A DNA stretch of 18,959 nucleotides. Origin: Minisyncoccota bacterium (GTDB lineage Bacteria > Patescibacteriota > Minisyncoccia > Phycocordibacterales > DATDSR01). Positions 1-18,244 of this stretch are shown piece after piece. The notes below the pieces were generated by a model, which saw nothing but the letters and a program-made list of their open reading frames with translations, did no database searches and was not told where the DNA came from. The stretch covers positions 1-18,959 of the forward strand of contig DATDSR010000026.1 in assembly GCA_036517855.1 (NCBI GenBank). Direction: 5' to 3'. A program made the translations under genes and the position numbers. Position 1 is the stretch's first letter; each line of letters begins with the position of its first letter.

Positions 1-139
1 ATACAGCAAAGGCCTTGGGGATGGCGGGCGGGGTGGGCGGTACTCCGCACACAGGCGGAGACGCACCGATTTAGTAGCAGGGTTTAATCACAGCGGTGTC
101 GTCTCGAAGTAAGTTCGAGCCGACTCGTAGATACTCCAC
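1..139 (+). repeat. Copy A of a GC-rich repeat family of about 180 bp (cut by the window start)
   Basis: By manual alignment, 1-139 matches 16761-16900 at 137 of 140 positions (2 substitutions, one 1-nt indel) in the same orientation. It contains the hairpin GTCG-T-CTCGAA-gtaag-TTCGAG-C-CGAC at 98-124. Confidence 0.9.
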
Positions 140-185
140 AAAAGACACGACAACCTGCCCTGCGGCAGGTTTTGTGCTTTTGTGG
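136..185 (+). terminator. Compound hairpin with T-tract (candidate intrinsic terminator, plus strand favoured)
   Basis: The inner stem AACCTGCC-ctgc-GGCAGGTT (152-171) is followed by TTTGTGCTTTTGT. The outer stem CCACAAAAG(A)CAC (136-148) pairs with GTGCTTTTGTGG (174-185). Because the T-tract also takes part in the outer stem, the function is uncertain. Confidence 0.4.
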
Positions 186-7174: not shown

Positions 7175-7179
7175 ATTAT

Positions 7180-7905
7180 TTAATGATTAACTTCTAATTT
7201 TGTAGACATTCCTAAGAAGACGAGCGTGAGCATCGAGAAGATAAGCGCCTGAATCAACCCCACGAACACTTCTAAGAACAAAAATGGCAGGGGTACTGCG
7301 TACGGGACTAGGAAGGCCACTATCGTAAGCAACACCTCGCCGGCGAACACATTGCCGAACAACCTAAATGAGAACGAGATAATCTTAACAAACTCACTGA
7401 TTAATTCAAGTATGCCTACAAAGGCCATTATCGGATCTTTGAAAGGGTTGTGGAAGAATTTGCCCGCGTGCTTGCCAAGGCCAATGGCCGCCGCGCCTAA
7501 GATGTTGACGGCGAGCACCGAGATGATTGCGAGTGCAATGGTGAAGTTGAGGTCAGCTGTAGCGGCGCGAAAGAGCGGCGCGTGGCCTACGAGTATGTGT
7601 GACAGAGGCAAGAGCCCAAGCCAGTTCGAAGCGAGGATGAACAAAAAGATGCTCCCTACAATAGGCAAGTATCGCAAAGAAGCGGTACGCGAGCCCAGGA
7701 TTGTGTCCATTAGTTCGAGAGCCTGCTCGATGAAAAGTTCGAAAATACTTTGCAATTTACCCGGTACTGGCTTCAACCCTGCGTGGATAATGAGAGCCAC
7801 CACCACAATAAGTAGAGCGGCAATAAAACCCATAAACATCGAATTAGTGACAGCCAAACTGCCAATATGAAAAATCGTCTCCGCTTTTATCGAAATCTCC
7901 GGCAT
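7180..7905 (-). CDS. atpB: Fo ATP synthase a subunit
   Basis: 241 aa and polytopic. The conserved Arg context is [16 protein letters not shown]. It is the first gene of the operon. Confidence 0.95.
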
Positions 7906-7937
7906 CGCGATGATAGCTTAACACCCTCCCACACAAC

Positions 7938-7965
7938 TTGACAAATAACCTTGGTCTTGTATGAT
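7938..7965 (+). promoter_or_regulatory. Sigma70-like promoter for the HicB-like ORF
   Basis: -35 TTGACA (7938-7943), 16-nt spacer, -10 TATGAT (7960-7965). The SD AGGAG (7973-7977) lies 6 nt before the ATG at 7984. Confidence 0.55.
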
Positions 7966-7983
7966 ACTTGGCAGGAGTCGAGC

Positions 7984-8157
7984 ATGAATAAAATCAAAAT
8001 TGCAGTCAACGTATCCCTCGACGGTAAACATTGGATAGCAACTATCCCTGATGAACGCGAGCCTGTCTTCGGAGGTGGAAGAACAGTAGCTGAAGCTGTC
8101 GGCGAGATTGTGATAGCATACAAACGGAGACTACAACTGGAAATCGAAATCAAATAG
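7984..8157 (+). CDS. Small HicB-like / UPF0150-type protein (possible orphan antitoxin-like protein)
   Basis: 57 aa from the ATG at 7984 (the ORF-track start at 7951 is a TTG upstream of the SD). The pattern DGKHWIATIPD...GGGRTVAEAVGEIV resembles the HicB N-terminal fold signature (xxPDxPG..G.T..EA). No HicA partner is nearby. Confidence 0.5.
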   Translation: MNKIKIAVNVSLDGKHWIATIPDEREPVFGGGRTVAEAVGEIVIAYKRRLQLEIEIK

Positions 8158-8199
8158 CCCCGAGGAGGAGACCCGCAACGCGGGGGCTCCACTCGGGGC
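8157..8199. terminator. Hairpin between convergent genes (candidate bidirectional terminator)
   Basis: GCCCCGAG (8157-8164) pairs with CTCGGGGC (8192-8199), with further imperfect internal pairing (GGAGACCCGC/GCGGGGGCTCC). It lies between the HicB-like stop and the uppS-fusion stop. Confidence 0.45.
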
Positions 8200-8214
8200 C
8201 TTCGCATTTATATA

Positions 8215-9270
8215 CTAGCTTCCTCCAAACGTGCGATTTCTATTGCCGTATTCGGCTAGGGCGAGTTGCATTTGGTCGGGGGTGAAGTCGGGGAAGTGGA
8301 GCGGGGTGAAGTAGAGTTCGGCGTAGACTCCCTGCCAGGGCATCATACCCGAGAGGCGCTGTTCGCCGCTTGTGCGGATGATGAGGTCCGGGTCGGGCAG
8401 TCCGGCAGTATCAAGCGCTTCGTTGATGCTCTCCTCGCTCACTCCCCCATTCTTACTTGCCTTTTGCGCCGCCCTAATAATTTCATCGCGTCCACCATAA
8501 TCTAATGCCATCGAAAATGTTTTACCGGCAAATTGAGCTGTTTGCTTTTCTAAATCTGCAAGACCACTGGCGAGCTTTGGATCTAATCTATCTTTGCGAC
8601 CCAAATGACGGAACGAAATTTTATCTTTTACAAGCTCCTTGCCCAAGTCTTTAACGGCTTGGGTGAAGGCCTTCATAAGCCAAGCGACCTCGTCAGCCGA
8701 GCGAGTCCAGTTCTCCGTAGAGAACCCCCAAAAGGTGATGTGCTCAACTTCAGTATCTTTAATAAATTTCAAAAGCTCTTTGGTGCGCTCAATCCCCTCT
8801 TTGTGACCTTGCCAAACCATGAGCCCGCGCTCTTTAGCCCAGCGGCGATTGCCATCTGGGATAATCACAACGTGCTTAGGTATTTTCAAAATCGTCTTCT
8901 CCACCTTCCTATCAACTCTGTTTAAAACACGCCGACCGAGATTAGTGAGTGCGTGCACTTGATCCACCACCATCGAGCCGTCATCGCGTGATACTTGGAA
9001 TTTATCAAACTCCCCCGTCGCCTCGCTCCAATTAAATGACAGGCCATCCACGTGGGCAAGCAAAGAACCGCGATAGCACCAGTCGAGCAACTTGCGTAGT
9101 GCCGCCTCGCCCCCATCACCCGTGGCCTCGGCCACAATCTCCACTTTGCCATTTGGCAAGTTACGGGCAAAACCAACAAGCCCGCAAGAGTCGGCCACCC
9201 GTTTAGCAGAAGCACGGTAAAAGACGCCTTGCACCCGCCCACTGACGAAAATCTCCAAACGTTTGTCCAT
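8215..9270 (-). CDS. uppS: Acylphosphatase domain fused to undecaprenyl-diphosphate synthase (cis-prenyltransferase)
   Basis: 351 aa. The first ~95 residues carry acylphosphatase signatures (VSGRVQGVFYR, GFARNLPNGKVEIVAE). The last ~220 residues carry UppS motifs (HVVIIPDGNRRWAKERG, FWGFSTENWTRSADEV, IRTSGEQRLSGMMPWQGVYAELYF). Confidence 0.9.
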   Translation of the reverse strand: MDKRLEIFVSGRVQGVFYRASAKRVADSCGLVGFARNLPNGKVEIVAEATGDGGEAALRKLLDWCYRGSLLAHVDGLSFNWSEATGEFDKFQVSRDDGSMVVDQVHALTNLGRRVLNRVDRKVEKTILKIPKHVVIIPDGNRRWAKERGLMVWQGHKEGIERTKELLKFIKDTEVEHITFWGFSTENWTRSADEVAWLMKAFTQAVKDLGKELVKDKISFRHLGRKDRLDPKLASGLADLEKQTAQFAGKTFSMALDYGGRDEIIRAAQKASKNGGVSEESINEALDTAGLPDPDLIIRTSGEQRLSGMMPWQGVYAELYFTPLHFPDFTPDQMQLALAEYGNRNRTFGGS

Positions 9271-9285
9271 CTAAATCAATTTATG

Positions 9286-9358
9286 TGCACTCTGCAGGGA
9301 TCGAACCTGCGACCTTGCGAATGTGAATCGCACGCTCTACCAACTGAGCTAAGAGTGC
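9286..9358 (-). tRNA. tRNA-Val (anticodon CAC)
   Basis: Manual cloverleaf: acceptor GCACTCT/AGAGTGC, D arm GCTC-AGTTGGTA-GAGC, anticodon arm TGCGA-TTCACAT-TCGCA, T arm GCAGG-TTCGATC-CCTGC, discriminator A. CCA is not encoded. Confidence 0.9.
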
Positions 9359-9367
9359 GCATTCGCA

Positions 9368-9396
9368 ATAGTATCTATAACTAGCCATTTTAGCAA
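9368..9396 (-). promoter_or_regulatory. Sigma70-like promoter for tRNA-Val (and probably the downstream uppS fusion)
   Basis: On the minus strand: -35 TTGCTA (9391-9396), 17-nt spacer, -10 TACTAT (9368-9373), 9 nt before the tRNA 5' end. Confidence 0.5.
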
Positions 9397-9404
9397 TTGG
9401 TGTC

Positions 9405-9449
9405 ATATAAAAAACCGAGCCCGCCACGTCCCCTAACGGGACGGGCGGG
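9405..9449 (-). terminator. Rho-independent terminator after the 43-aa ORF
   Basis: On the minus strand, a GC-rich stem of about 12 bp with two bulges (9420-9433 / 9438-9449, loop GTTA in the minus-strand reading, TAAC on the plus strand) is followed by CTCGGTTTTTTAT. Confidence 0.6.
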
Positions 9450-9457
9450 TGACGTGG

Positions 9458-9589
9458 TCAAAGGTGGAAGACAAGGGCGATAGCGTTCCAGGCTCCCCAC
9501 CACATGACTCCACACGCAAAGATTGCAACCGCATAGTCGGCCCAGGAGTTGTGACTGATGTGAACCGGAGTCAAATTTTCGTTGGTCAT
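9458..9589 (-). CDS. Small hydrophobic peptide (43 aa), hypothetical
   Basis: MTNENLTPVHISHNSWADYAVAIFACGVMWWGAWNAIALVFHL. A strong SD GGGAGGAGG lies about 10 nt upstream of the ATG at 9589. It has its own promoter (9615-9642) and terminator (9405-9449), and one predicted TM helix. Confidence 0.5.
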   Translation of the reverse strand: MTNENLTPVHISHNSWADYAVAIFACGVMWWGAWNAIALVFHL

Positions 9590-9614
9590 GTTCGATTGTC
9601 CTCCTCCCAGAGTA

Positions 9615-9642
9615 AAGATAGCAAGTATTTGACAAAAGTCAA
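9615..9642 (-). promoter_or_regulatory. Promoter of the 43-aa ORF, with the -35 embedded in a TTGAC-N4-GTCAA palindrome
   Basis: On the minus strand: -35 TTGACT (9637-9642), 16-nt spacer, -10 TATCTT (9615-9620). The palindrome TTGACaaaaGTCAA spans 9629-9642. Confidence 0.5.
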
Positions 9643-9683
9643 GGGGCATTATTTCGGATTGCCTGTCAACCAAATATAATCCG

Positions 9684-9692
9684 TGGTATAAA
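9684..9692 (+). promoter_or_regulatory. Possible extended -10 promoter for tRNA-Pro/tRNA-Ala
   Basis: TGgTATAAA at 9684-9692 lies about 14 nt before the tRNA-Pro 5' end. The -35 is poor. Confidence 0.3.
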
Positions 9693-9705
9693 TACTTCCG
9701 TAATA

Positions 9706-9776
9706 CGGAATGTAGTATAGTGGTAATATACGCCCTTCGGGAGGGCGAGCCCCGAGTTCGATTCTCGGCATTCCGA
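9706..9776 (+). tRNA. tRNA-Pro (anticodon CGG)
   Basis: Manual cloverleaf: acceptor CGGAATG/CATTCCG (C1-G72, typical of bacterial tRNA-Pro), anticodon arm CGCCC-TTCGGGA-GGGCG, T arm CCGAG-TTCGATT-CTCGG, discriminator A. Confidence 0.85.
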
Positions 9777-9777
9777 C

Positions 9778-9850
9778 GGGCCCGTAGCTCATCTGGTAGA
9801 GCGCGTCATTCGCATTGACGAGGTAAGGAGTTCGACTCTCCTCGGGTCCA
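9778..9850 (+). tRNA. tRNA-Ala (anticodon CGC)
   Basis: Acceptor GGGCCCG/CGGGTCC containing the G3:U70 alanine identity pair, D arm GCTC-ATCTGGTA-GAGC, anticodon arm CGTCA-TTCGCAT-TGACG, T arm AGGAG-TTCGACT-CTCCT. It starts 1 nt after tRNA-Pro and CCA is not encoded. Confidence 0.9.
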
Positions 9851-9887
9851 CTGCTTCGTTAAGACTACGCAGTGCAATCACAAACTT

Positions 9888-11705
9888 ATGGAAGGTGAAA
9901 AGAAAAATAATGTAACACGATCGGCGATTACTGAAATGCTGCGTAACGGGCGGCGCGTGCTTGGTATGGCCTACAGGGCCAAGCCTGGTCTGATGATAGG
10001 AATATTAATAGTGTTCGCCATCGCCGCGGCGGCGGGTTTCGGATCTTCAGGTACCCGAGCTTTGCTCATTAACGAGCTCGTGGCTCTGCCTGGTAACGGT
10101 TGGAGCAATTCAATCATCTTACTGCTACTCGCTACCCTGCTTATGAATATCTTACCAGATGTCATCGGCCAACTTCAGGAATATTGGCGATGGAAGTTGT
10201 GGTTCGTGATGGAGGAAGAGTTGAACGTATTACTTCTCAAGCAACGTGGGCTCCTCGATATCGCCACGCACGAGGATCCTAAGACACAAGATCTATTCAC
10301 CCGAGTGAATGAAGCGGGTGTGTGGCGAATGAGCAACTTCGTGCAGAGGATGCTCTTCGTTTTGCAAAACTTAATTGAGATCGTTTTAGCTGGATTGATT
10401 ATCCTCGCCTTCAAGTGGTGGGTTTTCCTCATCGTTTTCTTGGGAGTCATCCCCACCCTCATAGTCGAAGCCAAATACAGTCGAGGCGTCTACGGCATAG
10501 ACACAGCCGGAGCCGAGGTGAAGCGTCGTTATTGGGACTTGGGTCATCGCTTCAAGAATCTCTCGGACTTAGTTGAGATCAAACTCACCGGCTTGACCAA
10601 AAATTTTACCGAGCGCATAGTTGCGCTCTTTCGTCAGTTCAGAGGTCCGGAGGAGGCCAAAGAGAGAGCTAAGTTTGTACGCGGAGCAAGCGCTACCCTA
10701 CTCTCCAATGTCACCATCGCCGTGGCCCTCGGCTGGACAATCGATCAAGTGCTCGGAGGAACGATGCAAGTGGGTACTCTCACGTTCATTTTCACCTCAA
10801 TTTATACTCTACGCCAATCACTCTCGGGCCTACTCCAAAACTTGGCCAACCAGTACAAAGATAGCCTCTACCTCACAGATACATTCGCCTTCCTAGATCT
10901 AGCGCCCAGACTTGACACCACCAAATCACATCAACAAATCACGACAGGCAAAACTCCCTCAATAGTCTTCGAGAATGTAAGCTTCGGCTACAAAACTGGC
11001 ACGAGCCCAATCCTAAAGGGTGTCAACCTGCGTATAGACTCGGGCGAGAAGTTGGCCATAGTGGGCGTCAATGGTGCGGGCAAGACAACTCTCATAAAAC
11101 TCCTTTGCCGCTTCTACGACCCTACTGGGGGCAGGATCCTGGTAGATGGCATAGACCTGCGCGAGATTGATCTTGCTAGCTGGTACGACACCTTGGGCGC
11201 TATTTTTCAAGACTACTCGAGATACCACTTTACGGTCAAAGAATCGATTGCCGTGGGCACGCCGGGTATTGGGCCCGTTATGGAGAATGTAGTCACCGCC
11301 GCCCACAACGCCGAGGCCAACATTTTTATCGAGGAGTTTGAAAAGGGCTATGACCAACAACTTGGGCAAGAGTTTGAAGGTGGCGTACAGCCATCCACCG
11401 GTCAGTGGCAAAAGCTCGCTCTTGCCCGCACCTTCTATCGTGACCCGCGCATATTCATCCTAGATGAGCCCACTTCTTCCATTGACGCCGAGGCCGAGGC
11501 CAAGATTTTCGACAAGCTCGAGGCCTTGCCCGACGATCGCACCGTCATCCTAATCTCTCATCGCTTCTCCACCGTACGTCATGCCAATAAGATTGTAGTT
11601 ATAGAAAGTGGCACAATCAGCGAAGGGGGTTCACACGAAGAGTTGCTAAAGCTTGACGGCACCTACGCCCGCCTCTTCAAGTTGCAAGCAAAAGGTTACG
11701 AATAA
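9888..11705 (+). CDS. ABC transporter, fused permease/ATP-binding exporter (MsbA / multidrug type)
   Basis: 605 aa. The N-terminal half has multiple TM helices. The C-terminal NBD has Walker A GVNGAGKTT, a signature-like STGQWQKLALAR, Walker B IFILDEPTSSID and H-loop ISHR. Confidence 0.93.
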   Translation: MEGEKKNNVTRSAITEMLRNGRRVLGMAYRAKPGLMIGILIVFAIAAAAGFGSSGTRALLINELVALPGNGWSNSIILLLLATLLMNILPDVIGQLQEYWRWKLWFVMEEELNVLLLKQRGLLDIATHEDPKTQDLFTRVNEAGVWRMSNFVQRMLFVLQNLIEIVLAGLIILAFKWWVFLIVFLGVIPTLIVEAKYSRGVYGIDTAGAEVKRRYWDLGHRFKNLSDLVEIKLTGLTKNFTERIVALFRQFRGPEEAKERAKFVRGASATLLSNVTIAVALGWTIDQVLGGTMQVGTLTFIFTSIYTLRQSLSGLLQNLANQYKDSLYLTDTFAFLDLAPRLDTTKSHQQITTGKTPSIVFENVSFGYKTGTSPILKGVNLRIDSGEKLAIVGVNGAGKTTLIKLLCRFYDPTGGRILVDGIDLREIDLASWYDTLGAIFQDYSRYHFTVKESIAVGTPGIGPVMENVVTAAHNAEANIFIEEFEKGYDQQLGQEFEGGVQPSTGQWQKLALARTFYRDPRIFILDEPTSSIDAEAEAKIFDKLEALPDDRTVILISHRFSTVRHANKIVVIESGTISEGGSHEELLKLDGTYARLFKLQAKGYE

Positions 11706-11709
11706 TTTT

Positions 11710-11889
11710 GTGGTGTTATCTTAACATTTGCGCGAACCCATTTCGAGAGCCAAAGTTGATGAGTGGCTAAATTAAAATGGTGCGTCCCCGCCTGTGGTCG
11801 GTGAGTACACCGCCCACCCCGCACGCCATCCCCAAGGGCCTCTACATTTTTGTATTTTTCGCGCGCGACTTCGGGGTTCGCAATATGGA
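11710..11889 (-). repeat. Copy B of the repeat family, inverted relative to copies A and C
   Basis: The reverse complement aligns with 16721-16900. The inner part (11771-11889 vs 16721-16836) is roughly 85% identical by manual alignment. The outer ~65 nt are diverged but of similar length, with an equivalent hairpin (TTTG-CGCGAA-cccat-TTCGAG-agc-CAAA, 11727-11754). It begins 5 nt after the ABC exporter stop. Confidence 0.85.
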
Positions 11890-11900
11890 AGCATCCTTAG

Positions 11901-11969
11901 TGGGTGGGAGAGCAGTCCCGCAAAATCCTCCAGCCCCAACTAACAGCTTTGCGGGACTGCTGGGTGGGA
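11901..11969. repeat. Miniature inverted-repeat unit flanked by a 9-bp direct repeat
   Basis: The direct repeat TGGGTGGGA occurs at 11901-11909 and 11961-11969. A perfect 13-bp inverted repeat, GCAGTCCCGCAAA (11912-11924) / TTTGCGGGACTGC (11948-11960), encloses a 23-nt loop. Confidence 0.8.
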
Positions 11970-11995
11970 TAAATAGATATTTCCATACTTCTCAC

Positions 11996-12023
11996 TTGAT
12001 TATATTCCTATTTGGAATATAAC
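11996..12023 (+). promoter_or_regulatory. Promoter with a C-box-like palindromic operator upstream of the controller gene
   Basis: -35 TTGATT (11996-12001), 16-nt spacer, -10 TATAAC (12018-12023). The palindrome ATATTCC-tattt-GGAATAT (12002-12020) fills the spacer. A further GGAATA half-site is at 12029-12034. Confidence 0.45.
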
Positions 12024-12051
12024 ACAATGGAATACTATACTAAAATTGTTA

Positions 12052-12273
12052 ATGACTAAAGCTATATTCTCAAAGGATCATAGGCACATTGTGGAACGGC
12101 TCAAGAAAGCCCGCATTGAGGCTGGTCTAGATCAAATTGCAGTGGCTAAGCGGCTCAAGAAGACCCAGTCGCATGTTTCCAAGATTGAAGCCGGGCAAAG
12201 AAATATAGATGTCGTCGAGCTAAAACAACTTGCTAGGATTTACAATAAATCAATGGACTATTTTCTGGAATAA
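12052..12273 (+). CDS. XRE-family helix-turn-helix protein, probable RM controller (C) protein
   Basis: 73 aa from the ATG at 12052. The HTH region is LDQIAVAKRLKKTQSHVSKIEAGQRNIDVVELKQLARIY. It lies 3 nt upstream of, and on the same strand as, the putative endonuclease gene. Confidence 0.8.
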   Translation: MTKAIFSKDHRHIVERLKKARIEAGLDQIAVAKRLKKTQSHVSKIEAGQRNIDVVELKQLARIYNKSMDYFLE

Positions 12274-12276
12274 ATT

Positions 12277-13305
12277 ATGTACGCAGATACGGCATTAAAA
12301 AAATATCACAAATACTTCGCACCATTCTTGACCCCGTCTCAAACTAAGAGATTGTTCACAAGGCTGGAGAGAGTTTCTTGCAACATAGCTCCAATAAATC
12401 CCGCCACAGGAAATACGCAAACGAGCGTAAGATGGAAGCTTGATAAGGCGAACCCAAACTACGCAAGTGAAAAAGAATGTCGAGAAATATTTACCGCTCT
12501 CGTTGAGGATCTGTTGGGTTTCTTGGGTGTAAAGAAATTTAAAGCTCGTGGTTATTTACAGACCTACTCGGATAAAAATATCGCGAAAGAGGACGTATCT
12601 AGTTTCTTAAATACTAGCTCTAGAATAGGTTCTCTCGAACTACCTATAGACTACAAAAGGCCACTTAGGGAAGATGGCAAGCACACAAAAGATAATATTT
12701 ACTGGTTTTCGCCTTTTACCAAGATAGTTAATTTAAGAAATTGGGTCGGAAATGAAAATATTGTTACCAAGATACAAGTAAAATCATATCTGACCGACAG
12801 AAGGCAAACAGGCGACTACCAGACAAATCGAGAGATTCGCTGGGAAACACATCCAAAGTCTCCTCAGTACGCTTCGAGAGGAGACTGCATGCTCATTGAA
12901 GCTAAACTATTAGCTCAAATATCCATTTTTGTTGGGGCACCTGACCTACCCGTGGATTTAATCGAAGTTGTAGAGGAAGTATTGGGCAGTAAATTTGTAA
13001 AAGATAGTTTCAAATGTCCCATATCCGGGAAACCAATTTTCTTTAACGAATTTTATGAAAAGGTAGCGAGCCCGGTGCATGGAAGATCAGGTTTCCAAGT
13101 CGGACATTTAAATCCGCTCGCATCTACAGGTCGTCATATTGCATCAAATACATCATGGATAACTGACCTAGGGAATCGTGTTCAAGGAGAATCTTCTCTA
13201 GAGCAAATCACAAATGATATTTTCTTCATGGCCAACTTCCACAAAGAGCGTCAGTCTCTAGATTGGAGTGAAGTTGAATCTATTGCAAAGAAAACACAGA
13301 GTTAA
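12277..13305 (+). CDS. Putative restriction endonuclease (C-terminal HNH / beta-beta-alpha-Me-like motif)
   Basis: 342 aa and low GC. It sits directly downstream of the C gene and is convergent with the methyltransferase. The C-terminal motif is FQVGHLNPLASTGRHIASNTSWITDLGNRVQG (spacing of the H...N...N type). I recognise no closer family. Confidence 0.55.
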   Translation: MYADTALKKYHKYFAPFLTPSQTKRLFTRLERVSCNIAPINPATGNTQTSVRWKLDKANPNYASEKECREIFTALVEDLLGFLGVKKFKARGYLQTYSDKNIAKEDVSSFLNTSSRIGSLELPIDYKRPLREDGKHTKDNIYWFSPFTKIVNLRNWVGNENIVTKIQVKSYLTDRRQTGDYQTNREIRWETHPKSPQYASRGDCMLIEAKLLAQISIFVGAPDLPVDLIEVVEEVLGSKFVKDSFKCPISGKPIFFNEFYEKVASPVHGRSGFQVGHLNPLASTGRHIASNTSWITDLGNRVQGESSLEQITNDIFFMANFHKERQSLDWSEVESIAKKTQS

Positions 13306-15409
13306 GTTTATTGACCATTGCAAAAGTGTGTTCTTTTGTCTTTTCCTTTAGAGTAATGATATCTTTTACTTCTTGGTCAATGTCACTAAGGGTTTGAAGA
13401 TTTCGTGGAGTCGGAATTAAGAGGTCATAAATCCTTTTGCCAAGCGAATCTATGATGTCCTGCGTCAGTTGTTTAGACTTAATTTGTCTCTGTACCCATC
13501 GAGATGAAAGAAGTCCTAGTAGGTTATAGGCCGTTAGACCTATTTCGTTAGAAAGCACTCTAATTTTATAAATATGACTCTGATAAATAATCTCAGTATC
13601 AAATTTGGTAATCATTGCAAGCGTTCCAATCAAGTATGTGCCGTCCTTAACCATAAGAATATCACCGGCTTGAATATCCTGTTTGTTTTTTAGCTTCTCG
13701 TAGATCGACCGCTCAACTCTATGCTTTGCATCATTCTTAACCTCCCAATTCGTTAAGTCAGAAGTTCTTATATAAGGTATATCTCCTGTACCATATGCCA
13801 GTTTTCCAATCTCGTCTCCCGTAGAAATCTCCAAAATATTCCTTTCGACAAGCTCCCGAATAGTAACCAAGTGTGAATCAACCGAAAGACTATTTTTATC
13901 ATTTTCTAAATCTGCGTCATAATACTTTGGAGCCAAAATATTATCATCAACACGATCTGCTAGTAGCATGTAGCCTAAATTGCTGCTCTCGGTGTAGGTT
14001 TTATTCCTGAATTTCAGATAATTACTCAAAATTCCAGGAAGGTCATCGTGGGGAATTATGTTTCCCCTAGAATCATGTCCGCACCACTTGGCCTCCGCAA
14101 AAAATATCGACCTTTCAACTGTATCACTACCATCCCTTCTTCTAACAATCATGAGATCCGTCTTTGTATGCGTGCCGCCCTTCCCTGAAATTTTAAAAAG
14201 TGACTCAGGCATGCCAATCACACACTCAACATCGGAATTATTAAGAATATATTGGACTGTACCTTTGTAATTCTTATTCGATAAAAGACTTTCTGGCACA
14301 ACAGTTGCAAGTAGACCTCCATTTTTAAGTGCTCGGATATTTCTTTCCATAAAAATTGCCTGTGGGGGCGTGTTGACGTTTAGGGTATCGGTCTTCTTAT
14401 ATGAACCATTATTACCAGACCATTTGTAGCTTACGGTGTATTGCTTGGCAGTTTCTTCGTCGATTGATTTTATCTTTGATCCAAATGGGGGGTTGGTTAT
14501 TACGAGATCGAAATATCCATCTTTTATTTTTGGCAAGTCTGGGTTACCTACCAAAAGTGAATCGCCATCATAAATATGCGCTACTTCACCGGTAAGCAAC
14601 GTTAAATGGATCTTCGCAAGTCTGGCTAGTTTTTTATCTTTTTCAATGCCAAACATATTATTCTTTACGAAGGATTGGACGTCCTTCTCTGGGTAGCGCT
14701 CCTTAAGGTACAGGTAGGTAGCCGTTAGGAAACTACAGGCACCACACGCAGTGTCTATAATTTTCCATGTGGGTTTTGGATCAACTGCTCTAACCAAAAA
14801 ATCTACTGCAACCTTCGGTGTGAAAAATTGGCCTTCTTGGCCTCTTATGTGATTACCAATGAACACTTGGTATAAAGACGCTACTACGTCTATGTTGTGT
14901 TTTTGGAATTCTCGTAGTTGACGGAGTCCTTGGGCTACGTAGTCTATCGAATGAGGATCTAGAAGTAGCTCCTCATCAGGACCATAAAAATCAGGAAACT
15001 TTGATCTGATTTTTGTAAATTCAGCTCTAAATACCTTAGAATTTTCAAATATGTCTTCAGAAATGCGTTTTTCGACAGTATCACTCAAGCAAAAGAAAAC
15101 TTTAAGAACCTCTTCGAGCAAGGCCTCATCTCGACTCATCCCCACCGCTCTTCCCGCAAGATAATTACGAATATTCCTAATGATAGCGGAAGGTTCGAGG
15201 GATAATTGTAAGTTTGCTTTTTGGTCTTTCATTTCCTGTTGAGCGGGAATCATCCCACAGTTTATGTAATTATAGTACATTTTGCTGAGTGAGGAACAGC
15301 GATTATCCACAGGGTTGACGTAATATCTAGCTAAACTACGTAAAAATATGATCGGCCTTTTAATGTCAGTATTTAAAAACAGAAAAGCCCCCACAGATGT
15401 AGAGTCCAT
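13280..15409 (-). CDS. N6-adenine DNA methyltransferase (gamma class, HsdM-like) fused to a C-terminal HsdS-type target-recognition domain
   Basis: Up to 709 aa. It has FFTPKVAVDFLV, motif I IIDTACGACSFL and motif IV DLVITNPPFG. The C-terminal ~200 aa resemble a type I S-subunit TRD (GDIPYIRTSDL...GDILMVKDGTYLIG...SHIYKIRV). The start is uncertain: ATGs at 15409, 15280, 15253 and 15232 are all possible, and the 15409 ATG sits inside a hairpin. The 3' end overlaps the R gene by 26 bp. Confidence 0.9.
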   Translation of the reverse strand: MDSTSVGAFLFLNTDIKRPIIFLRSLARYYVNPVDNRCSSLSKMYYNYINCGMIPAQQEMKDQKANLQLSLEPSAIIRNIRNYLAGRAVGMSRDEALLEEVLKVFFCLSDTVEKRISEDIFENSKVFRAEFTKIRSKFPDFYGPDEELLLDPHSIDYVAQGLRQLREFQKHNIDVVASLYQVFIGNHIRGQEGQFFTPKVAVDFLVRAVDPKPTWKIIDTACGACSFLTATYLYLKERYPEKDVQSFVKNNMFGIEKDKKLARLAKIHLTLLTGEVAHIYDGDSLLVGNPDLPKIKDGYFDLVITNPPFGSKIKSIDEETAKQYTVSYKWSGNNGSYKKTDTLNVNTPPQAIFMERNIRALKNGGLLATVVPESLLSNKNYKGTVQYILNNSDVECVIGMPESLFKISGKGGTHTKTDLMIVRRRDGSDTVERSIFFAEAKWCGHDSRGNIIPHDDLPGILSNYLKFRNKTYTESSNLGYMLLADRVDDNILAPKYYDADLENDKNSLSVDSHLVTIRELVERNILEISTGDEIGKLAYGTGDIPYIRTSDLTNWEVKNDAKHRVERSIYEKLKNKQDIQAGDILMVKDGTYLIGTLAMITKFDTEIIYQSHIYKIRVLSNEIGLTAYNLLGLLSSRWVQRQIKSKQLTQDIIDSLGKRIYDLLIPTPRNLQTLSDIDQEVKDIITLKEKTKEHTFAMVNKLNSVFSLQ

Positions 15410-15423
15410 ACGGACTTTTCTGT
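15379..15423 (-). terminator. Possible terminator of the high-GC gene
   Basis: On the minus strand: ACAGAAAAG, a 27-nt loop (with the inner hairpin AGTCC-gtat-GGACT), then CTTTTCTGT followed by TTTTAAAT. It lies 36 nt after the stop at 15459. Confidence 0.3.
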
Positions 15424-15458
15424 GAGGGCCGAAGAACTTATCGGACCTCTGGCTAAAG

Positions 15459-16232
15459 CTAGTTGACCTTCCTGACCGCCCGCCAGTCCACGAGGACGCC
15501 GAACGGGAAGCCGGCCTTGATGCTCATGCTTGGGAAGTTGGGCCCAGTATCGCCCTCGTCCTTCAAGCGCTGGACCGAGACCAGATGGAACTTGTGGCAA
15601 CTCATACCGACGACGAGCTTCCACCTACCCGGCTCCAGAATGTTCGCACCTTCGGGGTAGCAGTCGGTGACGGTCTCGGTGACCTCCACGATGCTGCCGT
15701 TGGGTGGAGCGAAGACATCGCACTCAGTGTTCCCGCAGGTTTGGACGGAGCCGAACTCTCGCTCGATGTGTTGCCTGGCCTCGTCCTTGTCCGCGGTGGC
15801 GTAGATCGGAAGACACGTCTCGGGGCCAGCTGCGCTTGGCAGACTACCACGACCCCCGGAAGTGGAGATAGCGGGCCGGCCGTCGAGGTGGAATTCGAAG
15901 TCGAAGTGGCGGAAGTATTCCTTCTCTCCACTCTGGTAGCCCCTGACCTCGAGGCTCAAACCCGGTCCACCGCGAAGCGTGATGCAGGCTTCGACACGGT
16001 TAGCGTCGCGGAAGAGCTCTCTGACCGACACGCTCTCCTCGTGACAACCGCAGGTGTACTTGCCGAAATCGCTGTAGCAATCGCTGGAAACCCTGCCGCC
16101 CATGCGGTCGGTTCCGAACATCACGAGTTCTCCGAAGAGTCTGAGAGCGGCACGATGCGCCACTGAGTACGTCCTGTTCTCGGCCAGTCGGGATCGAAGA
16201 GTCTTGTCGAGGAACAAACTGATCTTCTTCAT
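15459..16232 (-). CDS. Orphan Cys-rich cytoplasmic protein, high-GC (probable horizontal acquisition)
   Basis: 257 aa from the ATG at 16232, preceded by the SD AAAAGGAG (16241-16248). Third codon positions are strongly G/C-biased, and the local GC is about 60% against about 37% for the adjacent RM genes. It has 10 Cys (CGCH, CGNTEC and others) and no signal peptide or TM helix. I recognise no family. Confidence 0.7.
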   Translation of the reverse strand: MKKISLFLDKTLRSRLAENRTYSVAHRAALRLFGELVMFGTDRMGGRVSSDCYSDFGKYTCGCHEESVSVRELFRDANRVEACITLRGGPGLSLEVRGYQSGEKEYFRHFDFEFHLDGRPAISTSGGRGSLPSAAGPETCLPIYATADKDEARQHIEREFGSVQTCGNTECDVFAPPNGSIVEVTETVTDCYPEGANILEPGRWKLVVGMSCHKFHLVSVQRLKDEGDTGPNFPSMSIKAGFPFGVLVDWRAVRKVN

Positions 16233-16329
16233 CGCGTTTTCTCCTTTTTGAGTGGGCACGCTAGAGCCCAAGCAGAGAGGACAAACTCCGACGAAACGTC
16301 GGTCTATCTGTGACCCCTCATCTTTCGGA

Positions 16330-16358
16330 AGCATATCAAATCCCTTGACGAAAGTCAA
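16330..16358 (-). promoter_or_regulatory. Sigma70-like promoter of the high-GC gene, with the -35 inside a TTGAC-N4-GTCAA palindrome
   Basis: On the minus strand: -35 TTGACT (16353-16358), 17-nt spacer, -10 TATGCT (16330-16335). The palindrome CCTTGACgaaaGTCAAGG spans 16343-16360. The predicted leader is about 95 nt and contains the hairpin CCGACG-ttt-CGTCGG. Confidence 0.5.
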
Positions 16359-16392
16359 GGTGCAGTGTCCAGTACAAATGGGGAATGAGTTC

Positions 16393-16825
16393 GGGGAGCC
16401 GTGCCCGCCAAGGGCGGGCACCCCCTGTGCGCGCACGGGAGGGCGGGGCAAGCACAGTTAGATAGAGCCAGCCCTTCCCACCAAGGAGGGGTTTGGGGAG
16501 GAATTGGGGGGAAGGGCTGATCCATACTTCTCCCGTTCCCCCAGTCACGCCATTCATTGGCGTGACTGAATAATAGCGCGTCTCCGCCTCACTCTCCGAA
16601 TGCGCCAGAGCAGCAAACCGGTCGGGCATACAAATAACCACAACATTTTGATATAGTAAGAGGACGGCTTGCTGTGAGGGCGCATTCGGGGAGTCTCGCA
16701 TCGCCATCACTCAAGGCCTATCCATATTGCGAACCCCGAAGTCGCGCGCGCAAAAAACAAATACAGCAAAGGCCTTGGGGGATGGCGTGCGGGGTGGGCG
16801 GTACTCCGCACACAGGCGGAGACGC
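16393..16825. other. Hairpin-dense non-coding region with nested long-range helices (candidate structured RNA or nested palindromic elements)
   Basis: Local hairpins are at 16401-16421 (9 bp), 16424-16439, 16469-16519 (11+4 bp) and 16542-16568 (11 bp). The nested helices are: H1 16578-16589/16814-16825 (12 bp); H2 16591-16606/16679-16694 (16 bp, one T.G); H2b 16611-16623/16663-16674; H3 16698-16708/16781-16790; H4 16710-16718/16771-16779. Confidence 0.4.
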
Positions 16826-16900
16826 ACCGATTTAATAGCAGGGTTTAATCACAGCGGTGTCGTCTCGAAGTAAGTTCGAGCCGACTCGTAGATACTCCAC
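16721..16900 (+). repeat. Copy C of the repeat family, directly abutting the murA start
   Basis: 16761-16900 is about 98% identical to 1-139. 16721-16900 is the inverted partner of 11710-11889. It ends 12 nt before the murA ATG. The terminal TCCAC (16896-16900) can pair with GTGGA (16909-16913), which includes the A of the start codon. Confidence 0.9.
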
Positions 16901-16912
16901 TAACAAAAGTGG

Positions 16913-18244
16913 ATGTCAACATTTATCGTTAACGGCGGGGAAAAATTAGGTGGTGTTTATGAAGTTTCTGGGGCTAAGAATGCTGGTCCCAAACTTATCA
17001 TTGCCGCCATGCTTAGCGACAAGGAGTGTTTACTGCGCAATATTCCCAGAATTTCTGACACAGAGAAAATTATGTCGGCCATCCGACAGATGGGCGGAGA
17101 GTGCTCGTGGAGCGGTGACCATGAGGTTAAAGTTAACTGCGCTAATCTCAAGGACCCGCACGTGCCCGATGTTGTGTTAACGGCGAGGCACGCAGTGCTC
17201 TTCATCGGTGCAACGCTGGCGCGATTAGGCAAACTGCGGATAGAGAAGATTGGTGGCGACAAAATCGGCAAGCGGCCAATCGATCGTCTGCTCGGAGGTC
17301 TTGAGAGTCTTGGAGCCCAGGTCATTGAGAAGAATGGCGTCCTAGAAATGAGCATGCCAGAGCGGCTAGCCTCGCGCGATTACACCTTCGCCAAGAACAC
17401 TCACACAGGCACGGAGTCGCTTATACTCGGGTCAATTTTTAATTCAGGAATAGTGACAATCAGGAATGCCGCAGAAGAACCCGAAGTAGATAACCTCATA
17501 GAGTTCACAAATGCCATGGGTGCGAAAGTTCGACGCATCGACCCAAGAGTGATTGAAATTACGGGAGTGCCAAAATTACTGGGCGCAGCAACTGGCAAAT
17601 CTATGTATGATAGACTCGAGGCCGCCACAGCGCTTGCCCTAAATGTGATGAATGGTGGGGGAATCGAGGTACGGAATGTAGATCCCAAAATGGTGAAATT
17701 TTTCACCGACGCACTCGAGCAAATAGGCGCATCAGAACCCAGTACCAAGTACCTGGTACCTGTTACCTTGAAGACTGCTGTTCATCCAGGTTTCATCACG
17801 GACCTTCAACCGATCATGAGTTTGCTCTTGGCGTACAAGGGGGGTGGCAGATCGGAAATACACGAGATGATCTACGAGCAACGTTGGAGTGCTCTACAGG
17901 AGCTCGCCAAGATGGGGGTGAAGTATGAACTCTTCCAGCCCGCGGGCTACACAGCCAACGACTTCAACTTCAACGAGCGTGAGTTCCACAAGAACGACCC
18001 ATACGGAGCATACGTTTGGGGGCCAACTGAACTAAGGGCGGCAGAAGTGGAGTCGCGAGACGTGAGAGCGGGTATCACAGTCCTAATTGCGGCACTCTTT
18101 GCCCAGGGCGAGAGCAAAATCAACGACCCAGACAATCACATAGACAGAGGCTACGAAGATATAGTCGGCAAGCTCCAGCGCCTAGGCGCTGACATCAGGA
18201 GAATTGATTCCCCACTTCGCCAAGGCTACGCGGGGCAGGCATGA
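16913..18244 (+). CDS. murA: UDP-N-acetylglucosamine 1-carboxyvinyltransferase (MurA), Asp variant at the fosfomycin-target position
   Basis: 443 aa. The N-terminus FIVNGGEKLGGVYEVSGAKNA matches the MurA start. The active-site loop is KIGGDKIGKRPID (E. coli: PGGCTIGARPVD). HIDRGYEDIVGKLQRLGADI lies at the C-terminus. Confidence 0.93.
   Translation: MSTFIVNGGEKLGGVYEVSGAKNAGPKLIIAAMLSDKECLLRNIPRISDTEKIMSAIRQMGGECSWSGDHEVKVNCANLKDPHVPDVVLTARHAVLFIGATLARLGKLRIEKIGGDKIGKRPIDRLLGGLESLGAQVIEKNGVLEMSMPERLASRDYTFAKNTHTGTESLILGSIFNSGIVTIRNAAEEPEVDNLIEFTNAMGAKVRRIDPRVIEITGVPKLLGAATGKSMYDRLEAATALALNVMNGGGIEVRNVDPKMVKFFTDALEQIGASEPSTKYLVPVTLKTAVHPGFITDLQPIMSLLLAYKGGGRSEIHEMIYEQRWSALQELAKMGVKYELFQPAGYTANDFNFNEREFHKNDPYGAYVWGPTELRAAEVESRDVRAGITVLIAALFAQGESKINDPDNHIDRGYEDIVGKLQRLGADIRRIDSPLRQGYAGQA

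What the first reader, a model, noticed from the sequence alone, without database searches (positions are those of the whole stretch)
11706..16912. Inverted-repeat-bracketed, three-way compositional mosaic between the ABC exporter and murA
Two inverted copies of a repeat of about 180 bp (11710-11889 and 16721-16900) bracket 4.8 kb made of at least two foreign-looking blocks.
- One block is an AT-rich RM module (12.0-15.4 kb).
- The other is an orphan gene of about 60% GC plus about 0.5 kb of GC-rich hairpin-dense spacer (15.4-16.7 kb).
- The flanking genes are housekeeping genes of about 50% GC.
- No transposase or integrase is present, so this is not a classical IS or integrative island.

The architecture fits three ideas:
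1. A cassette mobilised or captured through the repeats.
2. A segment invertible by recombination between the ~119-bp arms, which are about 85% identical.
3. A recombination hotspot that accumulates defence cargo.

The unknown high-GC gene sits beside an RM system inside this unit. That makes it the best candidate in the window for an undescribed defence-associated or selfish-element function.
Basis: partly seen in the sequence, partly recalled or inferred. Interest (0 to 1): 0.75.

Follow-up and report, generated by a model that had tools for sequence, protein, structure and literature searches.

The report
Defence gene cassette with inverted ends
The inverted repeats are real and mark the two ends of a swappable gene cassette that recurs in several ultra-small (CPR) bacteria with different, mostly anti-phage, cargo; complete copies sit beside a serine recombinase and a tRNA-Ser gene, whereas the copy here has no recombinase and its junction with murA may be an assembly artefact.

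Summary
The inverted repeat and the three-way composition mosaic are real, but the anatomy needs revising.

- **The repeat:** it is a ~183-nt core with a third copy at window 1-142.
- **The arms:** the two ends of the bracketed unit differ.
  - The left arm is the core plus a long hairpin (11707-11992).
  - The right arm is a 330-nt GC-rich structured region plus the core (16392-16903). Most of the "GC-rich spacer" is therefore conserved framework, not foreign cargo.
- **Other cargo in the same arms:** four other cassettes use them.
  - Shedu, MvaI/BcnI RM and Mrr.
  - Another RM with a ThsB-like TIR protein.
  - An EcoRI-like methylase with SIR2-HerA.
  - A non-defence thioredoxin/DsbD set.
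- **Link to a recombinase:** in two other genomes the left core abuts a large serine recombinase gene with its own 130-nt inverted repeats and a tRNA-Ser gene. One such element is bounded by a 19-nt direct repeat of the tRNA-Ser 3' end.

The window copy is best read as a recombinase-less member of this integrative cassette family.

No contig shows the cargo segment inverted. The copy-C-to-murA junction occurs only in the window. At least four other assemblies continue from that copy into a NUDIX block.

The orphan fuses two small-protein families of unknown function. Nothing links it to defence beyond its location.

The parts
1..142 (+). Core copy A, lacking its first ~40 nt because the window starts inside it. 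In longer contigs it is the left (hairpin and HTH side) end of a second cassette with different cargo.
   Evidence: 97% identical to copy C. L012 and L013 extend it into a hairpin, an HTH gene, a 400-aa ORF, an 848-aa m5C+N6 methylase, a LexA-like protein, DUF2188, a 133-aa ORF and a ThsB-like TIR protein, then the start of a right arm.
9888..11705 (+). ABC exporter, the left host flank. Its stop codon lies 4 nt from the outer end of core B.
   Evidence: Pfam ABC_tran. The junction is identical in all cassette-1 contigs.
11707..11889 (-). Core copy B, the left terminal module. Its 3' part is the 'type 2' variant, also seen in the copies that adjoin the recombinase.
   Evidence: Its type-2 3' part aligns only with the L006 left core (4908-5190), which abuts the recombinase there.
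11890..11992 (.). Long hairpin of the left arm (stem about 11908-11962), followed by the motif TTCCATACTT (11981-11990). Homology with the other cassettes ends just after the motif and the cargo begins.
   Evidence: Alignment and motif scan; fold energy -36 kcal/mol. The same hairpin and motif occur in L006, L012, L032 and L050.
12000..12273 (+). Palindrome TTATATTCCTATTTGGAATATAA (12000-12022), read as a controller-protein operator, and the controller HTH gene (12052-12273).
   Evidence: HTH_3 E=4.5e-15. PADLOC Control_protein models also match (E about 5e-5), though other HTH families score better. The palindrome is read from the sequence.
12277..13305 (+). Putative restriction endonuclease, 342 aa.
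   Evidence: Assigned from its position after the controller gene and its convergent overlap with the methylase. The only match is a sub-threshold DraIII hit (E=9.5e-4). No PADLOC, NCBIfam or PDB sequence match.
13280..15409 (-). N6-adenine DNA methyltransferase, 709 aa.
   Evidence: N6_Mtase 1.2e-31 and Eco57I 5.6e-12. PADLOC MTase_II and MTase_I. NCBIfam MAD2-like, below its cut-off.
15459..16232 (-). Orphan gene, 257 aa, 60.5% GC. It fuses two small-protein families: an N-terminal half with a CGCHxES motif and a C-terminal half with a DWRG motif. It is extra cargo found only in this cassette.
   Evidence: AF2 model of the N-terminal half has pLDDT 92 with no PDB fold match. The identical protein was found on one 1-kb Logan contig, and the gene is present in all cassette-1 contigs.
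16233..16391 (-). Upstream region of the orphan, with a promoter-like site. It is not shared with other cassettes.
   Evidence: TTGACT-17-TATGCT preceded by TG, at 16358-16330 on the minus strand. Homology to L006, L032 and L050 begins only at 16392.
16392..16720 (+). Conserved GC-rich structured part of the right arm. It holds hairpins H1-H3, a TCCATACTT motif at 16521, and the 30-bp-stem hairpin H4 (16591-16694), whose loop carries TTTTGATATAGT (an extended -10-like sequence).
   Evidence: 84-93% identical in L006, L032, L033 and L050. Length differences rule out coding. Hairpin H1 is replaced by a different hairpin in L032, and H2 has compensatory changes. Fold energies are; the inverted repeat is I8.
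16721..16903 (+). Core copy C, the right terminal module. The window version is a mosaic: spacer-1 flank, a centre like copies A and B, and a murA flank like copy D.
   Evidence: It is only 90% identical to the copy at the same place in L022, L024, L025 and L035.
16913..18244 (+). murA, the right flank in the window only.
   Evidence: EPSP_synthase domain. L001-L003 carry the same MurA behind a different core and spacer variant.

Best explanation
Window 11707-16903 is one copy of a family of cargo cassettes in CPR bacteria (Paceibacterota-type). It lacks its own recombinase.

**Shared framework.** Each cassette is delimited by a conserved non-coding framework.
- Left arm: a ~183-nt core pointing outward, a long hairpin and a TTCCATAYT motif. 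In most members a controller-type HTH gene follows.
- Right arm: a ~330-nt GC-rich multi-hairpin region followed by the same core, inverted relative to the left one.
- The DNA between the arms is replaceable. It is usually a controller-led type II RM system plus other anti-phage genes. Here it is HTH, a restriction-enzyme-like ORF, an N6 methylase and a GC-rich orphan.

**Complete members.** In these the left core abuts a large serine recombinase gene. That gene has its own ~130-nt terminal inverted repeats and adjoins a tRNA-Ser gene.

**Shown:**
- the shared framework;
- the different cargos;
- the recombinase and tRNA-Ser adjacency in two genomes;
- direct repeats of the tRNA-Ser 3' end around one element.

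**Inferred:**
- the serine recombinase integrates the element at tRNA-Ser;
- the cores, whose outer ends resemble the tRNA 3' end (GGTTCG...CACCG), are sites on which it or homologous recombination acts;
- cargo is swapped between arms by recombination;
- the two cassettes of the window organism are derivatives, mobilised in trans or now immobile, that landed in intergenic sites. One of these sites is probably the ancestral atpC-murA junction.
For: **Same arms and polarity, different cargo**
- L006 (soil MAG): HXXEE protein, Shedu SduA, MvaI/BcnI restriction enzyme, N4/N6 methylase, Mrr and HTH.
- L012/L013 (same organism as the window): HTH, a 400-aa ORF, an m5C+N6 methylase, a LexA-like protein, DUF2188 and a ThsB-like TIR protein.
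- L032: HTH, an EcoRI-like methylase, GmrSD/HNH and SIR2-HerA.
- L050/L051 (Hainich groundwater): thioredoxin, DsbD, an oxidoreductase and DM13. Its cores are 175 nt and 100% complementary.

**Sharp common boundaries**
- Homology between cassettes stops at the HTH stop codon on the left and at GGGGAGCCG on the right.
- Every core copy found is a cassette end.
- Relatives with 71-77% identical MurA have no copy.

**Recombinase link**
- The recombinases of L006 and L050 are 94.5% identical and lie in the same geometry next to the left core.
- Each is flanked by 127-134-nt inverted repeats. One repeat ends at a tRNA-Ser 3' end and the other at the core end, with the same junction ...CACCG|CAAAATGAAAC.
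- In L050 the 19 3'-terminal nucleotides of tRNA-Ser(gct) recur in direct orientation 160 nt beyond the right core, bounding an 8.3-kb element.

**Structure is conserved, not only sequence.** Hairpins carry compensated insertions or wholesale replacement by a different hairpin.

**Synteny.** Relatives keep atpC directly followed by murA.
Against: - No recombinase or tRNA-Ser gene lies in the window or in about 70 kb of contigs from the same organism.
- I found no target-site duplication at the cassette ends.
- I found no precise empty site, no excised circle and no cargo-less framework.
- Only five cassettes from about four organisms support the family.
- The recombinase unit with its own inverted repeats could be a separate small element that merely inserts beside cores.
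- One cargo is not defence-related, so 'defence cassette' describes a tendency, not a rule.
- High nucleotide identity of the arms between MAGs could reflect close relatedness of those organisms. I could not measure that.
Confidence: 0.6

Rival explanations
1. This is a recombination hotspot and not a mobile element. On this reading the arms are a fixed landing pad, and cargo is exchanged only by homologous recombination through the 260-560-nt conserved arms, for example after natural transformation. The neighbouring serine recombinase unit would be an unrelated small element that happens to target the core end.
For: - The arms are long enough for homologous recombination.
- Boundaries coincide with the ends of shared sequence.
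- No target-site duplication was found.
- The recombinase has its own terminal inverted repeats, as a self-contained unit would.
- Core variants are mosaic between copies, as gene conversion would produce.
Against: - Cassettes occupy at least four unrelated intergenic contexts in one organism, and other contexts in other genomes.
- Relatives lack the arms entirely. The framework itself must therefore have moved.
- The L050 element, including the cassette, is bounded by a direct repeat of the tRNA-Ser end.
Confidence: 0.2
2. This is an invertible segment: recombination between the inverted cores flips the cargo, as in the phage Mu G segment, where the invertase gene lies just outside the repeat.
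For: - The repeats are inverted.
- In L006 and L050 a serine recombinase gene lies immediately outside one repeat.
- The L050 arms are 100% identical.
Against: - All fetched contigs crossing cassette 1 (L022-L029) have one orientation, and none has a chimeric B/C core.
- L050 and L051 agree in orientation.
- The arms in this copy are only 85% alike and no recombinase is nearby.
- I see no outside promoter or alternative gene arrangement that inversion would switch.
Confidence: 0.06
3. The core, with or without the right arm, is a structured non-coding RNA gene or leader that happens to be duplicated, for example a leader for murA.
For: - Hairpins are conserved through compensated changes.
- An extended -10-like TTTTGATATAGT sits in the loop of H4 and faces the core.
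- Terminator-like hairpins follow copy A and the L005 copy.
Against: - No Rfam family matches at the gathering threshold, and permissive matches are weak.
- Fold z-scores are -2.25 and -0.25.
- Copies occur only as inverted pairs at cassette ends.
- Downstream neighbours are unrelated: an ABC gene 3' end, murA, a gene terminator and the recombinase repeat.
- A cis-acting DNA role explains the same hairpins.
Confidence: 0.08
4. The ABC-exporter/murA context reported by the first reader arose in one of two ways: (a) a contig chimera made while assembling through the repeat, or (b) a real ~27-kb inversion between core copies C and D in a subpopulation.
For: - The copy-C-to-murA junction is seen only in the window.
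- L022, L024, L025 and L035 (four assemblies) join the same spacer to a different core variant and then to the 143-aa gene, NUDIX and tRNA-Ala.
- L001-L003 put a different core and spacer variant in front of murA.
- Window copy C is a mosaic of the other copies.
- The window starts inside copy A.
- Relatives have atpC directly followed by murA, which fits cassette 2, not cassette 1, lying before murA.
Against: - No reads are available, so (a) and (b) cannot be told apart.
- No single contig links the cassette 2 cargo to murA. L013 ends, and L001 starts, inside the right arm.
Confidence: 0.6

Closest known systems
SCC elements of staphylococci (SCCmec and ccr-less pseudo-SCC cassettes)
   Same: - A large serine recombinase, distantly matching the CcrB, CcrA and XisF models.
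- Site-specific integration at the 3' end of a conserved gene, with a short direct repeat.
- Terminal inverted repeats.
- Highly variable cargo that includes RM and other defence genes.
- Recombinase-less derivatives.
- Several cassettes in one genome.
   Different: - The target is a tRNA-Ser gene, not rlmH.
- The arms are long (260-560 nt), structured and asymmetric.
- The cassette proper is bounded by ~183-nt inverted cores.
- The recombinase gene has its own 130-nt inverted repeats and lies outside the core pair.
- The host is a CPR bacterium.
- Similarity to Ccr is far below the family cut-offs, so this is an analogy, not membership.
Transposon-like RM units flanked by long inverted repeats (Furuta, Abe and Kobayashi 2010, PMC2853133)
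   Same: A complete type II RM system with atypical GC content is flanked by long imperfect inverted repeats, with no transposase inside, and is associated with rearrangement of the neighbourhood.
   Different: - The published cases have 26-65-bp repeats unique to one unit and 8-bp target duplications.
- Here the repeats are 183 nt or longer and shared by several cassettes with different cargo.
- No target duplication was found here.
- Relatives of this unit are linked to a serine recombinase.
tRNA-targeting integrative cargo elements such as tycheposons (bioRxiv 10.1101/2020.12.28.424599)
   Same: - Integration at tRNA genes, including tRNA-Ser, leaving partial tRNA repeats.
- Modular cargo.
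- Degenerate copies lacking an integrase.
- A minority use large serine recombinases.
   Different: - Tycheposons are bounded by direct partial-tRNA repeats and usually carry tyrosine recombinases and replication genes.
- They have no conserved inverted non-coding arms.
Invertible segments with an adjacent serine invertase (Mu G/gin, P1 C/cin)
   Same: An inverted repeat pair encloses a few kb, and a serine recombinase gene lies just outside one repeat, as in L006 and L050.
   Different: - Those invertases are small serine recombinases acting on ~30-bp sites with an enhancer.
- Both orientations are observed in those systems. Here only one orientation is seen and the recombinase is of the large type.

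Membership tests
Type II restriction-modification system with a controller (C) protein | DNA methyltransferase gene | tested here: met
   N6_Mtase E=1.2e-31. PADLOC MTase_II E=2.6e-40.
Type II restriction-modification system with a controller (C) protein | Recognisable restriction endonuclease gene next to the methylase | tested here: inconclusive
   The 342-aa ORF is in the expected position. Its only match is a sub-threshold DraIII hit (19.5 bits against a cut-off of 27). No PADLOC, NCBIfam or PDB sequence match.
Type II restriction-modification system with a controller (C) protein | Small HTH gene upstream, with a palindromic operator | tested here: met
   HTH_3 E=4.5e-15. PADLOC Control_protein models match at E about 5e-5, weaker than its best HTH hits. 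A 23-nt palindrome lies at 12000-12022.
Integrative element mobilised by a large serine recombinase (SCC-like) | Large serine recombinase gene within or adjoining the element | tested here: not met
   None is present in the window or in the contigs of the same organism. The feature is met in the relatives L006 and L050: Resolvase, Recombinase and Zn_ribbon_recom domains.
Integrative element mobilised by a large serine recombinase (SCC-like) | Integration at a defined site, with direct repeats of that site at both ends | tested here: not met
   The window has no tRNA-Ser fragment or direct repeat at the cassette ends. The feature is met in L050: a 19-nt repeat of the tRNA-Ser(gct) 3' end at 7929-7947 and 16243-16261.
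Integrative element mobilised by a large serine recombinase (SCC-like) | Excision or integration catalysed by the recombinase | not testable with these tools
   This needs reads that show circular junctions, or an in vivo or in vitro recombination assay.
Transposon-like RM unit with terminal inverted repeats (Furuta et al. 2010) | RM genes flanked by inverted repeats | tested here: met
   The bracket is reproduced in at least four other assemblies.
Transposon-like RM unit with terminal inverted repeats (Furuta et al. 2010) | Short target-site duplication outside the repeats | tested here: not met
   The flanks of copies A, B, C', D, L005, L006b and L032 share no duplicated sequence. At most, three of them share a loose AAAA.
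Transposon-like RM unit with terminal inverted repeats (Furuta et al. 2010) | Empty site in a related genome | tested here: inconclusive
   Relatives have atpC followed by murA with no cassette and no core. They also lack the two genes next to copy A, so no exact empty site can be aligned.
Invertible DNA segment | Both orientations present in a population | tested here: not met
   All fetched contigs crossing the cassette are colinear with the window. Assembled contigs are a weak test; reads are needed.
Composite transposon bracketed by MITEs or dispersed repeats | Solo copies of the repeat elsewhere, and terminal inverted repeats within each copy | tested here: not met
   All copies found are cassette ends. 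By eye, the two ends of the core do not match as inverted repeats. Only limited sequence of each genome was available.
Integron gene cassette | attC site and an IntI tyrosine integrase, with cassettes in direct orientation | tested here: not met
   No tyrosine recombinase is present. The arms are inverted and far longer than attC sites.
Known structured RNA family (Rfam 15) | Match at the family's gathering score | tested here: not met
   Only tRNAs reach the threshold. In permissive mode the best match is 22 bits against a 55-bit threshold.

The most novel reading that the evidence does not exclude
The ~183-nt cores and the ~330-nt multi-hairpin right arm may form a previously undescribed cis-acting recombination module. 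Its outer ends mimic the tRNA-Ser 3' end. A large serine recombinase could use it to move or exchange whole cargo blocks between docking sites, a natural counterpart of recombinase-mediated cassette exchange. Alternatively, the right arm may encode an element-specific structured RNA. Either reading would make this a distinct class of cassette platform in CPR bacteria, which are thought to be poor in mobile elements.
Probability: 0.2. Interest if true: 0.8.

Novelty: new variant of a known kind. Interest (0 to 1): 0.6.

Why it matters
CPR (Patescibacteria) bacteria have tiny genomes and few recognised mobile elements, and how they acquire and exchange phage-defence genes is largely unknown.

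A compact platform with conserved non-coding arms would give a concrete route for that exchange. It carries RM, Shedu, SIR2-HerA, Mrr and TIR-type cargo in different copies, and it is tied to a large serine recombinase and tRNA-Ser.

It would also provide:
- a sequence handle (the arms) for finding new cargo genes in metagenomes;
- a new recombinase with candidate attachment sites that can be tested directly.

For genome scanning there is a practical lesson. Such repeats break or mis-join metagenome contigs, so apparent gene neighbourhoods across them need checking against other assemblies.

Tried and rejected
**Searches that found nothing**
- Rfam at gathering and permissive thresholds: nothing on the arms.
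- Viral contig scans for the core (two patterns), the right arm and the recombinase: no hits, so no sign of a phage origin.
- Protein search with a spurious ORF across the left arm: nothing. The same trick on the right arm worked.
- PDB sequence searches for the restriction-enzyme-like ORF and the orphan: nothing.
- Literature searches: no description of this element in CPR bacteria.

**Leads that did not extend the family**
- More distant homologues of the HTH gene (62-66% identity) are not in this framework.
- The 136-aa ORF after the HTH gene in L054 and L055 looked like an empty cassette, but it is a real cargo gene.

**The orphan**
- Folding it from a single sequence failed (pLDDT 39).
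- The alignment-based model of the N-terminal half is confident but has no PDB Foldseek match.

**Ideas considered and rejected**
- Inversion between copies A and B as the cause of the flipped atp operon. The hairpin-plus-type-2 combination of copy B also occurs in L006, so B is not a recombinant.
- Target-site duplications. None were found.
- Terminal inverted repeats inside the core. None were found.
- The two 143-aa genes next to copies A and C' as part of the repeat. They are unrelated proteins.

Full report
**Observation**

The window has three compositional regimes.
- The housekeeping genes (atp operon, uppS, ABC exporter, murA) are 51-52% GC.
- Positions 11993-15409 are 39.2% GC. Their tetranucleotide usage is almost uncorrelated with the housekeeping genes (r = 0.14).
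- The 257-aa orphan at 15459-16232 is 60.5% GC (r = 0.30), and 16392-16903 is 58.4% GC.

The inverted repeat is real. Copies at 11707-11889 (minus) and 16721-16903 (plus) are 85% identical over their first ~120 nt. Every other inverted match in the window is 32 nt or shorter.

The AT-rich block encodes three genes.
- A controller-type HTH protein (12052-12273) lies behind a 23-nt palindrome.
- A 342-aa ORF sits in the position of the restriction enzyme. Its only match is a sub-threshold DraIII hit.
- A 709-aa N6-adenine methylase follows on the opposite strand.

No recombinase or transposase is present in the window.

A third copy of the repeat lies at 1-142. It is on the plus strand, 97% identical to copy C, and is cut by the window start.

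Other assemblies carrying the identical MurA all end inside or just upstream of the repeat. That is how a multicopy sequence behaves in assembly.

Aligning all copies shows a ~183-nt core running from TCCATATTGCG to CTCCAC or CACCRC.
- The first ~120 nt are conserved.
- The 3' part is a hairpin whose sequence varies between copies.

The two ends of the bracketed unit are not equivalent.
- On the left, the core is followed inward by an ~80-nt hairpin and the motif TTCCATAYT. The cargo starts directly after the motif.
- On the right, the core is preceded by about 330 nt of GC-rich sequence (16392-16720). This holds three hairpins, the same motif, and a 30-bp-stem hairpin.

**The GC-rich spacer is conserved framework**

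The stretch 16392-16720 is 84-93% identical in a soil MAG (L006), a Hainich groundwater contig (L050, with the NCBI MAG contig L051) and other Rifle contigs (L032-L034).
- It contains insertions and deletions that are not multiples of three, so it does not encode protein.
- Its hairpins are preserved through compensating changes. In L032, hairpin H1 is replaced by a different hairpin at the same place.
- In the core, a 4-bp hairpin becomes a 5-bp hairpin through matched two-base insertions on both sides.

Only the orphan and its 160-nt upstream region (15459-16391) are specific to this cassette.

**The same arms hold different cargo**

Five cassettes share the arms in the same polarity.

| Cassette | Source | Cargo |
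|---|---|---|
| 1 | window | HTH, restriction-enzyme-like ORF, N6 methylase, orphan |
| 2 | same organism, beyond copy A (L012, L013) | HTH, 400-aa ORF, 848-aa m5C+N6 methylase, LexA-like protein, DUF2188, small membrane protein, ThsB-like TIR protein, then the start of a right arm |
| 3 | Rifle contig L032 | HTH, EcoRI-like methylase, GmrSD/HNH, SIR2-HerA |
| 4 | soil MAG L006 | HTH, Mrr, N4/N6 methylase, MvaI/BcnI enzyme, Shedu SduA, HXXEE protein |
| 5 | Hainich L050/L051 | thioredoxin, DsbD/AhpC, FAD oxidoreductase, DM13 (not defence); cores 175 nt, 100% complementary |

- In cassettes 2, 3 and 5 the HTH gene and its promoter belong to the conserved left arm (89-94% nucleotide identity).
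- Homology stops exactly at the HTH stop codon on the left. It resumes exactly at GGGGAGCCG on the right.
- Every core copy I found is a cassette end.
- Contigs of relatives with 71-77% identical MurA contain none.

It comes out positive.

**Link to a serine recombinase and tRNA-Ser**

In L006 and L050 a large serine recombinase gene lies directly outside the left core, in the same orientation. The two proteins are 94.5% identical.

Each recombinase gene is flanked by its own 127-134-nt inverted repeats, which I call R. One R copy encodes the last ~44 residues of the protein.
- The outer side of that copy is the 3' end of a tRNA-Ser gene. This holds in three cases, with anticodons gga, gct and act.
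- The outer side of the other copy is the end of the core.
- The junctions match: tRNA ...TCACCG|CAAAATGAAAC and core ...TTCACCG|CAAAATGAAAC.
- The terminal hairpin of the core (GGTTCGCGC...CACCG) resembles a tRNA T-arm and acceptor end. This resemblance is my reading of the sequence.

In L050 the 19 3'-terminal nucleotides of tRNA-Ser(gct) recur in direct orientation 160 nt beyond the right core. They bound an 8.3-kb unit made of the recombinase and the cassette. That is the classical signature of site-specific integration into a tRNA gene.

The recombinase matches the CcrB, CcrA and XisF models only distantly.

**Interpretation**

The window segment is best read as a recombinase-less member of this family.

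*Shown:* the framework, the cargo diversity, the recombinase and tRNA-Ser adjacency, and the direct repeat.

*Inferred:*
- the recombinase moves the element;
- the cores are sites of action;
- cargo is exchanged by recombination within the arms;
- the window organism's cassettes were mobilised in trans or are now immobile.

*Against a simple transposon model:* I found no target duplication, no exact empty site and no cargo-less framework.

*Main rival:* cargo exchange purely by homologous recombination through the long arms. The unrelated insertion contexts and the absence of arms from relatives argue that the framework itself has moved.

**Inversion**

Every fetched contig that crosses cassette 1 (L022-L029) is colinear with the window, and none has a hybrid B/C core. 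There is no evidence for flipping of 11890-16720. Assembled contigs are a weak test of this, however.

**Context problem**

The junction of copy C with murA is seen only in the window.
- L022, L024, L025 and L035 come from four assemblies. They match window 3280-16900 at 99.9% identity but carry a different core variant, only 90% identical to window copy C. They continue into a 143-aa gene, NUDIX, tRNA-Ala(tgc) and an AAA_25 protein.
- L001-L003 place yet another core and spacer variant in front of murA.
- Window copy C is a mosaic: spacer-1 flank, a centre like copies A and B, and a murA flank like copy D.

Relatives have uppS, the atp operon and atpC followed directly by murA on one strand. 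In the window the atp operon is inverted relative to murA.

The simplest genome model places cassette 1 between the NUDIX block and the ABC exporter. It places cassette 2 at the old atpC-murA junction. The window's copy-C-to-murA join is then either an assembly chimera through the repeat or a real ~27-kb inversion between copies C and D. Only reads can decide.

**The orphan**

The start at 16232 has a good ribosome-binding site. The protein has no Pfam, PADLOC, NCBIfam or PDB sequence match.

An exhaustive search of 1.8 billion representative proteins found 31 relatives.
- Residues 1-125 match a family of ~130-aa proteins with a CGCHxES motif.
- Residues 145-256 match a few ~120-190-aa proteins ending in DWRG.

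The gene is therefore a fusion of two small families that also occur as free-standing genes. One C-family member lies between RNase J and a tRNA synthetase, with its own promoter and terminator.

An alignment-based AlphaFold model of the N-terminal half is confident (pLDDT 92, pTM 0.86; helices packed on a curved four-stranded sheet). It has no significant PDB match.

Nothing beyond location ties the gene to defence, and it is absent from the other four cassettes.

**Comparison with known systems and novelty**

- **Functional analogy.** The family behaves most like SCC-type elements: a large serine recombinase, integration at the 3' end of a conserved gene, variable cargo rich in defence genes, and recombinase-less derivatives. 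It also resembles tRNA-targeting cargo islands such as tycheposons.
[quoted passage not shown] 2010.
- **Membership.** It is a member of none of these. Key defining features were tested in the window and not met: a recombinase in the unit, a direct repeat of the target, and a target duplication.
- **Prior description.** I found no description of this framework in the literature searched.
- **Rating.** I rate it a new variant of a known kind. It is of moderate to good interest for mobile-element and phage-defence biology in CPR bacteria.
- **Caveat.** Only five cassettes from about four organisms support it, and no mechanism has been demonstrated.

Noticed in passing
window 1311-9270 versus L008-L010: The atp operon and uppS lie on the minus strand, inverted relative to murA. 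Relatives with 74-77% identical MurA have the atp operon ending in atpC, then murA, on one strand (L010 also carries the uppS 3' end upstream). In L011, uppS directly precedes murA.
   Followed up: partly
window 3953-4534 (minus): A 193-aa ORF with no Pfam match sits between atpA and atpG inside the ATP synthase operon. It is called as a gene in every contig of this organism but is absent from the relative L010, where atpA and atpG are adjacent.
   Followed up: partly
window 399-830 and 871-1305 (minus): Two lineage-specific genes of 143 and 144 aa, with no family match, lie between atpC and core copy A. Both are called in the contigs from other samples shown. Relatives have no homologue at this position.
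   Followed up: partly
window 2912-2944 and 18208-18240: A 33-nt motif (TTCCCCAC..CGCCAAGGCT..GCGGGGCA.GC, 85% identical) occurs at both sites. In one it encodes the unique 12-residue C-terminal tail of MurA (SPLRQGYAGQA). In the other, read in antisense, it encodes the unique N-terminal extension of AtpD ([13 protein letters not shown]). Relatives' proteins lack both extensions.
   Followed up: partly
window 195-225; L032 (minus strand) about 20-60; L050 16165-16200: A palindromic motif, GATG(Y)TCCGCAAGCTTGCGGA(R)CC(R)CGAG, recurs in the sequence just outside cores. In L050 and L032 it is part of a ~160-nt 'tail' between the right core and the tRNA-Ser repeat. In the window only a 32-nt piece follows copy A.
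   Followed up: partly
window 8215-9270 (minus): The undecaprenyl diphosphate synthase (uppS) carries an N-terminal acylphosphatase domain. This is an unusual fusion.
   Followed up: no
L050 4100-9700: Two recombinase units lie back to back in mirror orientation, each against its own tRNA-Ser gene (anticodons act and gct). The left one adjoins a much more divergent core-like GC-rich region and an HTH gene of the same family that reads away from it. This suggests a second, older cassette.
   Followed up: partly
L042 9640-10010 and L045 9680-10010: A different HTH gene (P0060, 62% identical to the cassette HTH) keeps about 330 nt of identical upstream sequence in two unrelated contexts: after fmt and a tRNA, and after a SWIM-domain gene. 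This may be another kind of HTH-led movable unit.
   Followed up: no
L036 8791-8821 (also L037-L041): A 31-nt stretch of the right arm (TGTGCGCGCACGGGAGGGCGGGG...) recurs at 94% identity in an intergenic region of an unrelated Hainich Patescibacteria contig, with none of the rest of the framework.
   Followed up: no
L022 5191-5264: A low-scoring tRNA-Ala(tgc) (36.7 bits) lies just before NUDIX and after an AAA_25 primase/helicase-like gene. The block next to cassette 1 may itself be an integrated element.
   Followed up: no
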